Below, in pieces: positions 32,977 through 36,651 of a stretch of DNA of 64,000 bases. Numbering within the stretch: position 1 is the first letter of the stretch; each line of letters opens with the position of its first letter. Source of the stretch: a phage; sequence record NC_100372.1. The stretch is one strand, 5' to 3'. The notes under the pieces were generated by a model, which was not told the origin of the DNA, made no database searches, and worked only from the letters and a program-made list of their open reading frames with translations. The position numbers and the translations under genes are program-made.

Positions 32977-33051
32977 CATCGACACGTTCCAGCCATATGT
33001 CGATAAAGTCTTATTTTTTAAACATGTTGCCGGAATACTCACGGGTGGAAC

Positions 33052-33237
33052 ATGACCAACACACATGCATCTACAGAAACATCTGAAGGAGTGACAGAGG
33101 AAAACTTCAATTCTGAGGATTCTCTATCTCCGTCCCAGGTGGACCCTGAGGCTGATGACCTAACGTGGGAGGATATCATAGCCATCTGGTTCTCTATTAT
33201 GCCTGAGCACGAAGAGTTCAGAGGTGGGAGACTATGA
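33052..33237 (+). CDS. Hypothetical highly acidic protein
   Basis: GGGTGGA upstream. D/E/S-rich. Confidence 0.5.
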   Translation: MTNTHASTETSEGVTEENFNSEDSLSPSQVDPEADDLTWEDIIAIWFSIMPEHEEFRGGRL

Positions 33238-33357
33238 AGCACCGAGCCCACATAAGTTTATCATGCTAAAGCATGGCCTGAAGGGGCAAACGTGCATAAT
33301 TCCATCGTATTGGAACGTATAAACCCCGTTCACACTCTCATTTCCAGAGGAGATTTC

Positions 33358-33573
33358 ATGAAAATAGAAATATTTGGTGGGGCTGACAACACTCGTGGCC
33401 TGATTTACCTTGAATTCGATGAATCTTACCTGCCAGAGGTGTTAAATATAGATGCTGTTGCGGAAGCCCTTGATGTAGACCCTAAAGATCTCTACTCCCG
33501 TGCTGAGATTGATGGTTGGGAAGAGACTCTGAACATTGATTTCAGTGAAGTAGTAGATGAACCTTTGGACTGA
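33358..33573 (+). CDS. Small acidic protein (MKIEIFGG..., family-like)
   Basis: ATG 33358 after AGAGGAG. Last gene of the + strand arm. Confidence 0.6.
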   Translation: MKIEIFGGADNTRGLIYLEFDESYLPEVLNIDAVAEALDVDPKDLYSRAEIDGWEETLNIDFSEVVDEPLD

Positions 33574-33713
33574 CACACAAGTCTGCTTTGCAGGTTTAGC
33601 TGCTCAGCTAAGGTTCTGGAGTCACCTATAACATCTTCCAACTAAATTTCCTACCAACACAGTTACTTACCCACCACACATGACTGTTTGCTTGTTTAGT
33701 GAGCAGTCATCCC

Positions 33714-33741
33714 TTGACATTCTTGCCTATCTTGATAAAAT
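33714..33741 (+). promoter_or_regulatory. sigma70-type promoter firing into ORF-free DNA
   Basis: TTGACA(33714-33719), 16 nt spacer, TAAAAT(33736-33741). No ORF with an SD downstream. Confidence 0.5.
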
Positions 33742-33936
33742 TAAGTTCTTCTCTTTTCTTTTACCGAGTAATTCGGGTTTTCTGTTCTCTTCGGTTTGAA
33801 GGGGTATGGAGATACACCTGAGTGAACAGGGTGAACAACCGAACCTTTAGCTATGGCATTAGCATGGCGAAGCGGACGGGTGACGAAAGAGGGGCCGGAG
33901 GACACCAGTCACTGCCATATAGTATATGGGTGATAA

Positions 33937-34476
33937 CCTGAAGAGTCTGAATAAGTGTTTAAGTACCAGTCAGAGGAAAAGGTGAATGGTAGCCGAAGGG
34001 GGAGGGGGGTTTCTTATATCTTTAATTTGTATACTTTATATACACTTGTAAACCAATTCAATTAGGATCTGTTTACCACACAAAGTGGATGGAGACAAAT
34101 ATCACCTATTAAACTTGAATTATTTATAGAAAATACCACAACACCGCTTAAGTCTTTGATTTTACACACAAATCTTACAAATATCCTACCTCCATATTTA
34201 ACATACTTGTAACATATTCCATATCCTACCTGCCTGATCAATTTACTCCCACCACATTCCCACATTTTCCCTGTCTGTACTACCCCACCCCCGCCGGGAG
34301 TCCCGTCATATCTGGCTTTCCAGCAAATATCACACCCACAAATATCATCACCTGAAGAGGGTTTCATCCCATAATACCTGCCTTACCTGAAGAGCGCTTC
34401 ATACACCACCTAAATTTTTTAATTGACCCCTCCCCGCCGCCGGAGAGGTTGGCTTTTCCCACACAGGCCTGAAGAG
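33937..34476 (+). repeat. CCTGAAGAG 9-mer, 4 direct copies
   Basis: Copies at 33937-33945, 34351-34359, 34386-34394 and 34468-34476. Confidence 0.8.
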
Positions 34477-34706
34477 TCAGCCAGAAATATCTGAACAGGT
34501 CCAGTTATGCCCCGATTTTGTGCTTGTCCTACAGGAGTGCTGCCCTGTCAGGAGCCGGTAGCGACTGGAGTGCTGCCAGGCGGACGGAATGGGAATACTT
34601 CTCATTTTTATAATAATTCTCAAATATCGAGGCAGTGAGGCAAATTAATAGGCCAGGCCGTTCACACAGTGGCACAACATTTGCAATCTATCTTGTGGGA
34701 GTGAAT

Positions 34707-34740
34707 GAGAATACCTATCATTGTGAGAATGGTTATCATT
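34707..34740. promoter_or_regulatory. Two adjacent Fur-box-like sites (GAGAATNNNTATCATT)
   Basis: GAGAATACCTATCATT (34707-34722) and GAGAATGGTTATCATT (34725-34740). The second matches 13/19 of GATAATGATAATCATTATC. Confidence 0.4.
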
Positions 34741-35038
34741 ACGGGCAATTTAACATAATACCTATTATGCGCACCACTGGCGATACATACAGGGATTGAT
34801 AACATGGGTTACTGTTTACGCACATAACAATTATATTTATTACTATTTGTGTGGGATATAGTTAGCAACCAATAGATTAGATATTGACCTGCAGACTTCT
34901 GACCGTCCAGACGTCTAAACGCCCACACAACAAGGATTATACATACATTCCTGAATGTAAACAGGGCCGCAAAAAATGCTACCATACCAGTTTGTAAATT
35001 TTTCATGCAGCACTTGACAAAGAGGAGAAAAACTTGTC

Positions 35039-35100
35039 TGACACAATGTGACAAAATTGCCACTTTTGACACTTTTACCTTTGACACAATATGACACAAT
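35039..35100 (+). repeat. TGACACAAT iteron cluster (5 copies, 3 perfect)
   Basis: Perfect copies at 35039-35047, 35082-35090 and 35092-35100. Variants at 35049 (TGACAAAAT) and 35067 (TGACACTTT). Confidence 0.8.
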
Positions 35101-35193
35101 AACGGCTGTTACTATTCCATATCTCACTGTTTACGTATAGACTGTTTACGCCTGAATAGTTTACGCCCAAACTGTTTACACAGAGATGATAAG

Positions 35194-35432
35194 CCATGAC
35201 ATTCGTTTGCATGAAAACAATTAACAAGTTAATAATATATGACATAATATAAAAGCAGGGCAACTATTAGAAGATCTATAGTTGCCTTGCTTGTTATGTC
35301 ATGATTAACTAAATACAAGGCAACTATGATCTGAATAATAGATTGCAGAAAAACTATCACGGGGGTGATTGTTACTGCTTTTATATTATGTCGCGACTCC
35401 GTCGCGCCATGCCATTCGTTTGCATAGTTGCC
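35194..35432. repeat. Nested direct-repeat / inverted-repeat / palindrome structure
   Basis: 19-nt DR CCATGaCATTCGTTTGCAT (35194-35212 and 35407-35425, 1 mismatch). 18-bp perfect IR GACATAATATAAAAGCAG (35241-35258) / CTGCTTTTATATTATGTC (35375-35392). GGCAACTAT/ATAGTTGCC at 35259, 35278, 35319 and 35424. Confidence 0.85.
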
Positions 35433-36040
35433 TTATTGTTACAGGTAAAACAATTACATTATTAATTATTTCTTATCTTTCTCTTAGTCATCTAATGATT
35501 CCAGTCAGTATAGTAATGTACAGTAAACATTAGACGACTAAAGATTTCTCTGTGTATAATAACTTATCGTGACAATTTCGAACTGTTTACGAAAAATGTT
35601 GACACCTGAGCTGATTTATGTTATGCAGTTTACACGAATAATTATTTTATGCAGGTATTGACTATTCCGTTATTCTGTGGTTGGAATAAATACTTTGCAG
35701 ACTATAGAATGGCGTGCGTACGTGAATTCTGAGATCTGGCGGCTATAGTTATACTCGATTTTTCGCGTAGAACACGCTTTCGATGCTGTGTAAGTGTATG
35801 ACTTATAAAGATTTTTAGTTGTTGACAAGATATTGGAGATGTGCATCAGGTTAAAATTTGTGCAATAGCGGCATTACGTGCACTTTTGGGAGAGAAAACG
35901 GGTAAAAATGGCCCTGCTACCACACAATGAAAGATTATGCAATGGTTATTTTCCATGTATATTTGTACAGTATGTGGGATTGATGGCTAGTCAATTATTC
36001 CACTTGCCAGGTAGGGCCGTTTATGGTAGGAGAAGAGCAG

Positions 36041-36069
36041 ACAAAAAGAAAGGGGCCTTTAAGCCCCTT
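36041..36069 (-). terminator. Rho-independent terminator ending the - strand arm
   Basis: On the - strand: AAGGGGC-TTAAAG-GCCCCTT followed by TCTTTTTGT. Confidence 0.8.
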
Positions 36070-36087
36070 GATAATTCAGTTAAGAAA

Positions 36088-36507
36088 TTATAATGATTCG
36101 TATATTTCAAAAATCCGATTTGCCAGGTCGTTACGGTAGCGGAATTTTTCATCGCGCTTGATCATTAAATCCTTATAGCCGTACTCTTTAAGCACTTCAT
36201 TAACTTTATAGCGGCATACCTGCATATTATCTTGAGCGTCACCAATAAACTTGTTGCTGTGGTGCATTGCTTTAATTTCTTCTTCCAGGACCAGGGCAAC
36301 TACCCGGACCGGATCAAGCTGGTAGGCGGTAACATCTATGCGGCATTGTAGACGGCTTTTAACGTCTGCCACCGGATATACTGCAACCTCTTCCCCGTCA
36401 ACATTGACAATAATTAGTTTACCATCGATTTCGAATCCTTTCGCCGCCGGACCGTGACAAAAAGCGTTATCAAAGCTATATGCCGGATTATCAGATTTAA
36501 TGTTCAT
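36088..36507 (-). CDS. Hypothetical protein
   Basis: AGAGG SD. Own promoter at 36557-36585. Confidence 0.65.
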   Translation of the reverse strand: MNIKSDNPAYSFDNAFCHGPAAKGFEIDGKLIIVNVDGEEVAVYPVADVKSRLQCRIDVTAYQLDPVRVVALVLEEEIKAMHHSNKFIGDAQDNMQVCRYKVNEVLKEYGYKDLMIKRDEKFRYRNDLANRIFEIYESL

Positions 36508-36556
36508 GGTGTTTTTACCTCTTAGTTAATTTTCTTACAACTTCCCTTCAAAAAAG

Positions 36557-36585
36557 AATATAGCAAAACTGCCGATCCCTGTCAA
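36557..36585 (-). promoter_or_regulatory. sigma70-type promoter (-35 inside a palindrome)
   Basis: On the - strand: TTGACA(36585-36580), 17 nt spacer, TATATT(36562-36557). ATCCCT-TGTTGAC-AGGGAT palindrome brackets the -35. Confidence 0.7.
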
Positions 36586-36651
36586 CAAGGGATAGCATAA
36601 TTTTTATGTGATCAAGGGGCTTTATCGCCCCTGACCATGCAACCTGTTGTA

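What the first reader, a model, noticed from the sequence alone, without database searches (positions are those of the whole stretch)
34812..35634. Array of seven same-orientation CTGTTTACG iterons, four of them phased at 15 bp
The copies are:
- Exact: 34812, 35127, 35142, 35583
- One mismatch: 35157 (TAGTTTACG), 35172 (CTGTTTACA), 35626 (CAGTTTACA)

The four central copies (35127, 35142, 35157, 35172) are spaced exactly 15 bp apart. Regular phasing of direct repeats is the hallmark of iteron-type origins or cooperative operator arrays. No gene in the window is an obvious initiator, so the binding protein is unknown.
Basis: seen in the sequence. Interest (0 to 1): 0.62.

Follow-up and report, generated by a model that had tools for sequence, protein, structure and literature searches.

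The report
Phased repeat array beside phage genome end
A real, evolutionarily maintained row of short DNA motifs spaced 15 bp apart lies 88 bp inside the left physical end of an rV5-like E. coli phage genome; it resembles the still-unexplained repeat arrays next to phage T7's terminal repeat more than it resembles a classical iteron origin.

Summary
The array is real. ACTGTTTACG occurs exactly four times in 64 kb, all on one strand within 780 bp. Four units sit at an exact 15-bp phase (35126-35185).

The window is a Vequintavirus (rV5-like myovirus). The array lies in its 2.5-kb ORF-free region. Records that start at the physical genome ends (EdH4, YN3) place a 460-bp direct terminal repeat (DTR) at 34579-35038.

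Directly after the DTR come two arrays:
- TGACAYAAT units, about 10 bp apart.
- The AYTRTTYACR array, 15-16 bp apart.

Across 16 relatives:
- The phase is always 15, 16 or 30 bp.
- The core is conserved (0.74 identity) and the spacers are not (0.35).
- Copy number runs from 2 to 9, and phage V18 has no array at all.
- The motif is not enriched elsewhere in the window.
- The array is absent from Klebsiella phage KPP-1 and Vibrio phage ICP1, although their end boundaries look homologous.

The closest known thing is T7's SRL array. My best reading (about 0.4) is a genus-specific accessory platform for protein binding at the concatemer junction, serving end processing or packaging. An end-proximal iteron origin remains possible (about 0.25). 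The binding protein is unknown.

The parts
34534..34577 (+). Two copies of GGAGTGCTGCC (34534, 34567) just left of the terminal-repeat boundary, in an indel-rich flank
   Evidence: (family D17)
34579..35038 (.). Direct terminal repeat (DTR) of the virion DNA, 460 bp. It starts GGCGGACGGAATGGG and ends AAACTTGTC. It is present once here, as in a concatemer junction.
   Evidence: EdH4 and YN3 carry identical 459/458-bp copies at both record ends. Korf 2019 reports 458-bp terminal redundancy. Four records (EdH4, YN3, bov10K2, bov22_2) start at the position that equals window 34579. The DTR is 458-460 bp and indel-free in 16 relatives.
34811..34820 (+). Solo array-B motif ACTGTTTACG inside the DTR
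   Evidence: GTTTAC is invariant in 14 aligned relatives.
34956..34964 (-). Inverted solo motif (CTGTTTACA on the - strand) inside the DTR
   Evidence: TGTAAAC is invariant in relatives.
35039..35100 (+). Array A: five TGACA(C/A)WWT units at 35039, 35049, 35067, 35082 and 35092. It begins at the first base after the DTR. The phase is about 9-11 bp in relatives.
35106..35125 (+). Degenerate array-B-like remnants (CTGTTAC, ACTATTCCAT) in phase with array B
   Evidence: Read. ACTATTCACG is a scored array-B unit in relatives.
35126..35185 (+). Array B, the finding: four 15-bp units (35126, 35141, 35156, 35171). Family consensus is AYTRTTYACR followed by a 5-6-nt variable spacer.
35193..35425 (+). 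A 213-bp module bounded by 20-bp direct repeats GCCATGMCATTCGTTTGCAT (35193-35212 and 35406-35425). It holds an AT-rich stretch (GC 23% at 35210-35269) and long inverted repeats (18-nt perfect arms at 35241/35375).
   Evidence: D6, I1, I7, I13; DNA fold z = -7.1. The module is absent in FV3.
35520..35529 (-). Conserved inverted GTTTAC (AATGTTTACT on the - strand)
35582..35591 (+). Solo array-B motif ACTGTTTACG, 7 nt upstream of a conserved TTGACA
   Evidence: GTTTACGAAAAATGTTGACAC is invariant in every relative whose row was legible in the truncated output.
35599..35634 (+). Promoter-like element (TTGACA, 17 nt, TATGCA) overlapped at its 3' end by the array-B-like motif CAGTTTACA (35626-35634)
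   Evidence: Read; conserved. It was not picked up by the consensus scan because the second hexamer ends in A.

Best explanation
The array is a platform of four (2-9 in relatives) head-to-tail binding sites for a sequence-specific DNA-binding protein, probably encoded by the phage. It belongs to the control region at the physical left end of the genome.

In the replicating concatemer, one copy of the 460-bp terminal repeat (34579-35038) joins two genomes. Array A (TGACAYAAT, about 10-bp phase) starts at the first base after the right-hand cut. Array B (15-16-bp phase) starts 88 bp from that cut.

My proposal is that the protein coats array B and also touches the solo sites inside the repeat (34811, 34956) and at 35582. 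The resulting nucleoprotein complex would mark or shape this side of the junction for terminase cutting, terminal-repeat duplication or packaging. This would be the same position that the SRL array holds in T7.

What is shown:
- The array, its conserved phase, and the contrast between conserved core and variable spacer.
- Its position next to the repeat boundary, by homology with records that start at the genome ends.
- Its restriction to this one locus.

What is inferred:
- That a protein binds it.
- That the role is end processing or packaging rather than replication.
- That the role is accessory rather than essential.
For: - Position: the DTR maps to 34579-35038. EdH4 and YN3 have exact 459/458-bp repeats at both record ends. 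Four records begin exactly at the position equal to 34579. Korf 2019 reports 458-bp terminal redundancy. The related Klebsiella phage KPP-1 has a 514-bp DTR by coverage and PhageTerm, called T7-type, with similar boundary sequences.
- Selection on sites: all 62 adjacent spacings in the 15 phased genomes are 15, 16 or 30 bp, despite complete turnover of copy number. Core identity is 0.74 against 0.35 for spacers. Mixed 15- and 16-nt units rule out a coding sequence.
- Locality: the motif is not enriched elsewhere in the 64 kb, and solo copies are conserved at fixed places in and beside the DTR.
- Precedent measured here: T7 has a 160-bp terminal repeat, followed 15 bp later by 12 CCTAAAG units at 12-13 bp. 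It also has solo cores inside the repeat and irregular copies on the other side. Its core identity is 0.91 and spacer identity 0.39.
- Studied phage with a related replication gene: ICP1's primase-helicase is about 48% identical. ICP1 has its packaging cuts in a 1.3-kb ORF-free space.
Against: - The ends of this particular phage were not measured. Published PhageTerm calls for Vequintaviruses disagree: 'circular permutated', headful.
- The array is dispensable or nearly so in nature. V18 has none, and WM and FFH2 have two units. It is the least conserved part of the region.
- KPP-1 and ICP1 have similar cut-site sequences but no such array. The terminase therefore does not need the array in order to cut.
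- A motif that is conserved inside the DTR of all three genera (AATGAGAAT..ATCATT) is a better candidate for the core recognition site.
- The function of T7's SRL is, to my knowledge, itself not established, so the analogy gives position and form, not mechanism.
- No DNA-binding protein was identified.
Confidence: 0.4

Rival explanations
1. End-proximal replication origin. Array B units would be iterons for an unknown phage initiator that opens the adjacent AT-rich, hairpin-rich module (35205-35400) and loads the T7-type primase-helicase. This could be a late or secondary origin coupled to packaging.
For: - The layout reads as iterons, then an AT-rich stretch (GC 23% at 35210-35269), then strong inverted repeats (z = -7.1).
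- In ICP1, a late rolling-circle origin was inferred close to the packaging cuts in the ORF-free space.
- In T7, the phiOL promoter is annotated at position 405, about 65 bp after the SRL. From my own knowledge it acts as a secondary origin.
- The origin of rV5 has never been located.
Against: - No initiator gene was recognised.
- From my own knowledge, T7 starts replication from promoters, not iterons.
- The 15-16-bp phase is 1.5 helical turns, not the whole-turn phasing I recall for iteron origins.
- V18 lacks the array and FV3 lacks the AT-rich/hairpin module, yet both are viable isolates.
- The genes converge on this region, which is the opposite of the usual arrangement around a bidirectional origin.
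Confidence: 0.25
2. Local transcription control or roadblock. The same protein would bind the array and the solo sites to repress, activate or block RNA polymerase at the promoter-like elements of the ORF-free region (35221-35248 and 35599-35627), or to stop read-through across the cut site.
For: - The solo site at 35582 lies 7 nt upstream of a conserved TTGACA, and an array-B-like site overlaps the -10/+1 area at 35626.
- The array ends about 40 bp upstream of a TTAACA-16-CATAAT (TG) match.
- Same-orientation arrays suit a polar block.
Against: - These promoters point at the 3' ends of - strand genes, and no downstream ORF or Rfam RNA is found.
- No further sites occur at other promoters in the 64 kb.
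- Promoter-like matches in the region are not significantly above chance (15 found against 10.7 +/- 3.4 expected).
Confidence: 0.12
3. Functionless minisatellite produced by slippage or unequal recombination next to recombinogenic DNA ends.
For: - Copy number varies from 0 to 9 among phages whose flanks are 85-97% identical.
- Perfect 14-16-bp minisatellites containing TGTTTAC exist in unrelated viruses.
Against: - In those minisatellites the spacers are identical. Here the spacers are near random while the core and phase are kept.
- Solo copies of the same 10-mer are conserved at three fixed, non-tandem places.
Confidence: 0.08

Closest known systems
Short-repeat arrays SRL/SRR flanking the 160-bp terminal repeat of coliphage T7. 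Names and history are from my knowledge of Dunn & Studier 1983; the sequence was examined here.
   Same: - A short conserved core with variable spacers, all in one orientation, at a regular phase below two helical turns.
- The array begins within tens of bp of the right boundary of the terminal repeat, that is, at the left genome end.
- Extra copies of the core lie inside the repeat, and only irregular repeats lie on the other flank.
- Core versus spacer identity is 0.91/0.39 in T7 and 0.74/0.35 here.
   Different: - No sequence similarity (CCTAAAG against AYTRTTYACR).
- The phase is 12-13 bp against 15-16 bp, with 12 copies against 2-9.
- Here a second array (TGACAYAAT, about 10 bp) lies between the cut and the array.
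- The host phage is a 137-kb myovirus with no T7-type RNA polymerase promoters seen in the region.
- T7's SRL has no firmly established function, to my knowledge.
The ORF-free 'pac' space of Vibrio phage ICP1 (Barth 2019, PMC7145576; Boyd 2024, PMC11417361)
   Same: - The primase-helicase is about 48% identical.
- It is an ORF-free region of more than 1 kb containing two cuts 460-577 bp apart with raised coverage between them.
- Boundary-like sequences resemble those here: GACGGA on the left and TTGT|TAAGCAAT on the right.
- A late origin was inferred nearby.
   Different: - ICP1 is described as a headful 'pac' phage.
- Its flanking genes diverge rather than converge.
- It has no 15-bp phased array, only two or three copies of other short motifs.
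- My mapping of its boundaries is by sequence resemblance only: it gives 591 bp against the published 577 bp, in a different isolate.
Repeated terminase-binding elements of lambda cosB (R1-R3) and P1 pac (hexamer repeats) (my own knowledge)
   Same: Several short repeats close to a terminase cut site that assemble the recognition complex.
   Different: - Those elements are required for packaging and are conserved.
- This array is hypervariable, missing in V18, and absent from relatives with similar cut sites.
Iteron origins (lambda ori, P1 and F plasmid iterons, P4 type I iterons TGTTCACC) (my own knowledge)
   Same: - Direct repeats beside an AT-rich region.
- Some array-B units read TGTTCAC, which resembles the P4 octamer. 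This is a lead only.
   Different: - No initiator gene.
- A phase of 1.5 helical turns.
- Not essential in nature.

Membership tests
T7-type short-repeat array flanking a terminal repeat (SRL-like) | Lies directly beside the boundary of a short direct terminal repeat | tested here: met
   Array A starts at the first base after the DTR (35039) and array B starts at +88. The ends are inferred from the EdH4 and YN3 records, not measured for this phage.
T7-type short-repeat array flanking a terminal repeat (SRL-like) | Short conserved core, variable spacer, one orientation, regular phase | tested here: met
   Spacing is 15, 16 or 30 bp in 15 of 16 genomes. Core identity is 0.74 against 0.35 for spacers. 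T7 gives 12-13 bp and 0.91/0.39.
T7-type short-repeat array flanking a terminal repeat (SRL-like) | Copies of the same core inside the terminal repeat | tested here: met
   Here at 34811 (+) and 34956 (-). In T7 at 17, 41 and 60.
T7-type short-repeat array flanking a terminal repeat (SRL-like) | Counterpart array of the same core on the other flank (SRR) | tested here: not met
   The left flank has only 2x GGAGTGCTGCC and other unrelated repeats. T7's right flank has irregular CCTAAAG-like copies.
T7-type short-repeat array flanking a terminal repeat (SRL-like) | Sequence homology to T7's array | tested here: not met
   Different core, different phase and an unrelated phage family.
Iteron-type replication origin | Three or more direct repeats beside an AT-rich unwinding region | tested here: met
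   Four units, followed by GC 23% at 35210-35269.
Iteron-type replication origin | A cognate initiator (Rep, O or alpha type) encoded by the replicon, usually nearby | tested here: not met
   No Pfam DNA-binding or Rep domain in 10 flanking small ORFs. The large ORFs encode a T7-type replisome only. The remaining ~73 kb of the genome, outside the window, was not examined.
Iteron-type replication origin | Repeats phased so that bound proteins share one face of the helix (about 11 or 22 bp) | tested here: not met
   The phase is 15-16 bp, about 1.5 turns.
Iteron-type replication origin | Kept in close relatives because it is needed for replication | tested here: not met
   Absent in V18, two units in WM and FFH2, and the least conserved segment of the region. 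Redundant origins could excuse this.
Iteron-type replication origin | Supports initiation of DNA synthesis | not testable with these tools
   Needs marker-frequency sequencing or a plasmid amplification assay.
Terminase recognition site (cosB/pac type) | Repeated elements within about 100-200 bp of the cut | tested here: met
   Arrays A and B span +1 to +147 from the inferred right-hand cut.
Terminase recognition site (cosB/pac type) | Conserved wherever the homologous cut site and terminase are conserved | tested here: not met
   KPP-1 and ICP1 have similar boundary sequences but no array B. The element after the cut (T.A.CAAT) does look shared with array A.
Terminase recognition site (cosB/pac type) | Bound by the small terminase and required for packaging | not testable with these tools
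   The small terminase of this group is not identified; it is likewise unidentified in ICP1.
Operator array of a phage regulon | Sites recur at several promoters of the genome | tested here: not met
   PWM hits outside 34.8-35.6 kb number 9 against about 16.6 expected in the 64 kb.

The most novel reading that the evidence does not exclude
Arrays A and B together form a dedicated start site at the genome end. A Vequintavirus-specific protein would coat the 15-bp array, and the adjoining 10-bp-phased TGACAC units would serve as clustered primase sites: they read 5'-GTGTC-3' on the other strand, which I recall is a T7-type primase recognition pentamer. DNA synthesis would then begin at the terminal-repeat boundary, duplicating the repeat and feeding packaging. 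That would be an iteron-like initiator working with a T7-type replisome. It would also give a first function for T7-SRL-like arrays.
Probability: 0.15. Interest if true: 0.65.

Novelty: new variant of a known kind. Interest (0 to 1): 0.42.

Why it matters
- rV5-like phages are among the most commonly isolated E. coli phages and are used in therapy and biocontrol work. Their genome ends, packaging signals and replication origin are essentially uncharacterised. The rV5 genome paper marks this region only as 'non-coding' and could not place the origin.
- Placing the terminal repeat in the region, and showing two phased, selectively maintained arrays beside it, gives concrete targets for engineering: what must be kept in synthetic or rebooted genomes, and what a transducible plasmid would need.
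- The natural copy-number series (0, 2, 4, 5, 9 units) makes the long-open question of what T7-type end-flanking arrays do directly testable.
- The resemblance of the boundaries to KPP-1 and ICP1 suggests that ICP1's 'pac site with two cuts' may be the same kind of short terminal repeat.

Tried and rejected
- Rfam scan of 33000-36600 at E <= 1: no family.
- Consensus promoter and terminator scan: counts near chance, so not used as evidence.
- IMG/VR scan for the DTR end: one contig only.
- IMG/VR scan for three phased TGTTTAC units: 53 loci. The 12 I read were all perfect minisatellites, mostly in giant viruses and other unrelated viruses, so they were rejected as relatives and kept only as a contrast.
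- PLSDB search with the array: one hit, a 137.5-kb 'plasmid' that is probably an rV5-like phage. No plasmid origin matched.
- E. coli chromosomes: no match.
- Pfam on 10 flanking small ORFs: no DNA-binding domain. The 'FtsK translocase' and 'Rel homology' labels found in some records are not reproduced.
- Coding potential of 35420-36050: substitutions show no 3-nt periodicity.
- Fetching Cronobacter phage GAP31 at a guessed position returned tail genes, so no third genus was gained that way.
- Literature searches for a Vequintavirus origin or transcriptome, and for the function of T7's SRL/SRR, found nothing usable.
- Host-factor motifs recalled from memory (DnaA, IHF, Fis, LexA, OmpR/PhoB, PurR) do not fit the core. 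The Fur-box resemblance inside the DTR is only 15/19, and six other sites of >=14/19 occur in the window.
- The likenesses to -35 hexamers (TTTACA, TTGACA), to P4 type I iterons and to F RepE iterons are recalled resemblances only and were not tested.

Full report

Yes, with corrections.
- CTGTTTACG is exact at 34812, 35127, 35142 and 35583, all on the + strand.
- One base further left, the 10-mer ACTGTTTACG is exact at the same four places and nowhere else in the 64 kb.
- The four central units (35126, 35141, 35156, 35171) are exactly 15 bp apart. Tandem Repeats Finder independently reports a period-15 array at 35126-35179.
- The copies at 35157 (TAGTTTACG) and 35626 (CAGTTTACA) differ at two positions, not one.
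- There are also conserved inverted copies at 34956-34964 and at about 35523.
- About 0.51 exact 9-mers are expected in the window, giving P(>=4) = 0.002 before considering that all four lie within 780 bp on one strand.
- With a weight matrix (PWM) built from relatives, the window as a whole has no excess (15 hits of >=11 bits against 17 expected). Six of the hits, including the five best, lie in 34811-35582.

**2. Where is it?**

The window is a Vequintavirus, an rV5-like E. coli myovirus.
- 119 phage records match the region, most at 90-97% identity.
- The array lies in a 2.5-kb stretch without annotated genes (about 33574-36087). It sits between a block of + strand genes and a block of - strand genes that converge on it.
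- The rV5 genome paper draws this stretch as a box labelled 'non-coding'. It reports that skew analysis did not locate the origin.

The key context came from records that start here.
- EdH4, YN3, bov10K2 and bov22_2 all begin at the position equal to window 34579.
- EdH4 and YN3 carry the same 459/458 bp at both record ends.
- Korf et al. 2019 state that EdH4 and HdK5 have 458-bp terminal redundancies.
- Mapped onto the window, the direct terminal repeat (DTR) is 34579-35038.
- In 16 relatives it is 458-460 bp and, across the 14 relatives aligned, indel-free. Both flanks just outside it are full of insertions and deletions.

The finding therefore sits at the left physical end of the virion DNA or, in the concatemer, just to the right of the junction.

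Caveat: the ends of this particular phage were not measured. Some PhageTerm reports call Vequintaviruses permuted or headful.

**3. Anatomy to the right of the repeat**

- Array A begins at the very first base after the DTR. Its units are TGACAYAAT-like: five in the window, at 35039-35100. They are spaced mostly 9-11 bp apart in relatives.
- Array B, the finding, follows. It has two degenerate remnants (35106-35125) and then four good units.
- After array B come, in order:
  - a 20-bp sequence, GCCATGMCATTCGTTTGCAT;
  - an AT-rich stretch (GC 23%);
  - a set of long inverted repeats that fold far better than shuffled controls (z = -7.1);
  - the same 20-bp sequence again.
- Next is a 650-bp stretch that is conserved and indel-free but shows no ORF signal.
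- Solo copies of the array-B motif are conserved inside the DTR (34811 on +, 34956 on -). Another lies at 35582, 7 nt upstream of a conserved TTGACA.

**4. Comparative test**

I built a PWM from the arrays of 16 genomes. The consensus is A-Y-T-R-T-T-Y-A-C-R.
- In 15 of the 16 genomes, every spacing between neighbouring units is 15 (36 times), 16 (23 times) or 30 (3 times).
- Copy number is anything from 2 (FFH2, WM) to 9 (rV5, YN3).
- V18 has lost the whole array together with the first 20-bp repeat. FV3 has lost the 213-bp hairpin module instead.
- Within arrays, the 10-nt core is 74% identical between units and the 5-nt spacer is 35% identical, which is close to random. The units were chosen by their core, so the core figure is inflated. 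The near-random spacers at a fixed phase are the informative part.
- Perfect minisatellites carrying TGTTTAC in unrelated viruses have identical spacers, so they make a useful contrast.
- The arrays are the fastest-changing part of the region. Only 6 of 119 records cover at least 80% of 35039-35200, against 115 of 119 for 34700-35750.
- Mixed 15- and 16-nt units exclude a coding explanation.

**5. More distant relatives**

Klebsiella phage KPP-1 (Mydovirus):
- It has a 514-bp DTR, shown by twofold coverage and PhageTerm and described as T7-type packaging.
- Its boundaries resemble those here. On the left, GTGCTA|GACGGAC against GTGCTGCCA|GGCGGAC. On the right, CTTGACAAGGAGAGAGAATTGTGTT|TAGCAAT against CTTGACAAAGAGGAGAAAAACTTGTC|TGACACAAT.
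- It has no array A or array B.

Vibrio phage ICP1:
- Its primase-helicase is about 48% identical to the one in the window.
- Its packaging cuts lie in a 1.3-kb ORF-free space. PhageTerm places the termini at 431 and 891, and a 577-bp block lies between two cut sites. A late rolling-circle origin was inferred nearby.
- I find GACGGA at position 459 and TTGT|TAAGCAAT at position 1049 of its record. These resemble the two boundaries, but give 591 bp rather than 577 bp, in a different isolate. This is a resemblance, not a mapping.
- ICP1 also lacks a 15-bp array.

Conclusions from these two phages:
- The cut sites and the first element after the cut look shared across genera.
- Array B is specific to Vequintavirus.
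- A motif inside the DTR, AATGAGAAT..ATCATT, is present in all three genera. It is a better candidate for a conserved recognition element.

**6. What it most likely is**

The closest known structure is T7's SRL, which I checked on the T7 sequence itself.
- T7 has a 160-bp terminal repeat. Beginning 15 bp after it are 12 CCTAAAG units at 12-13 bp.
- T7 also has solo cores inside the repeat and irregular copies on the other flank.
- Its core identity is 0.91 and its spacer identity 0.39.
- Form and position match point for point, except that here the other flank has no counterpart array, and there is no sequence similarity.

I therefore read array B as a genus-specific, accessory platform of head-to-tail protein-binding sites. 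It would belong to the nucleoprotein complex at the concatemer junction and help end processing or packaging (confidence about 0.4).

Why accessory and not core: natural isolates with 0-2 units exist, and relatives with similar cut sites lack the array.

**7. Rivals**

- An end-proximal origin is the strongest rival (about 0.25).
  - For it: the sequence of repeats, AT-rich stretch and hairpins looks like an origin; ICP1's late origin maps near its cuts; and T7's phiOL follows its SRL (position; its role as an origin is from my own knowledge).
  - Against it: no initiator; a T7-type replisome; a phase of 1.5 helical turns; converging genes; and the natural loss of the array (V18) or of the AT-rich module (FV3).
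- Local transcription control or a polar roadblock is possible (about 0.12). However, the promoter-like elements point at the 3' ends of genes, and nothing recurs elsewhere in the 64 kb.
- A functionless minisatellite is unlikely (about 0.08), given the core/spacer contrast and the conserved solo copies.
- The remainder of the probability is for roles I have not thought of.

**8. Novelty and verdict**

- Nothing in the papers I could search describes these arrays. Some GenBank records mark a short 'repeat_region' here without comment. In the isim record, one of these features overlaps array B.
- This is a new variant of a known kind, namely short-repeat arrays flanking a terminal repeat. The novelty is a two-tier layout (about 10-bp and 15-bp arrays) in a large myovirus.
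- It is moderately interesting. It is not a surprise to a phage specialist. It is a clean, testable handle on genome-end biology in a widely used phage group and on the old question of what T7-type flanking arrays do.

Noticed in passing
window 34704-34745; L019 1914 and 1955; L021 880 (-) and 936: A motif AATGAGAAT...ATCATT lies inside the terminal repeat of all three genera examined (rV5-like, KPP-1, and ICP1 within its putative repeat). In the window it overlaps a 15/19 match to the Fur-box consensus at 34725. It could be the conserved packaging-recognition element or a host-factor site.
   Followed up: partly
window 35039-35100: Array A (TGACAYAAT, about 10-bp phase) starts at the first base after the terminal repeat. 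On the - strand its units read 5'-GTGTC-3' (35040, 35068, 35083, 35093), which I recall is a T7 gp4 primase recognition pentamer. The phage has a gp4-like primase-helicase.
   Followed up: partly
window 35193-35425: A 213-bp AT-rich, strongly hairpin-forming module (DNA fold z = -7.1) is bounded by 20-bp direct repeats GCCATGMCATTCGTTTGCAT. FV3 lacks exactly this module, as if it had been excised between the repeats. V18 instead lacks array B plus the first repeat.
   Followed up: partly
window 35426-36050: About 650 bp that is highly conserved and indel-free across relatives. It has no ORF of note, no 3-nt periodicity of substitutions and no Rfam match. It ends at a hairpin that could act as a two-way terminator (36050-36069).
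   Followed up: partly
window 34909-34916: The palindrome AGACGTCT (identical to a MetJ box, from memory) occurs once in the 64 kb. It lies inside the terminal repeat and is nearly invariant in relatives.
   Followed up: no
window 33714-33776 and 33800-33960: The best sigma-70-like promoter match of the region (TTGACA-16-TAAAAT with TG, 11/12) is followed within about 25 nt by a terminator-like hairpin. After that comes a comparatively GC-rich stretch with no Rfam match. A - strand ORF at 34062-34367 is annotated in some relatives only.
   Followed up: no
one search hit list (MG0656xx records): Eighteen records named 'Campylobacter phage' (host C. jejuni) match this E. coli Vequintavirus region; those listed are about 89-94% identical. 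The host label looks doubtful.
   Followed up: no
PLSDB record CP057073.1, 6037-6073: A 137.5-kb 'non-mobilizable plasmid' of E. coli from cattle faeces matches the array.
   Followed up: no
L021 (ICP1 HQ641347) 459 and 1049: ICP1's published 'pac site with two cut sites' may be a short direct terminal repeat of the same kind. Sequences resembling both rV5-type boundaries lie about 590 bp apart in its ORF-free space.
   Followed up: partly
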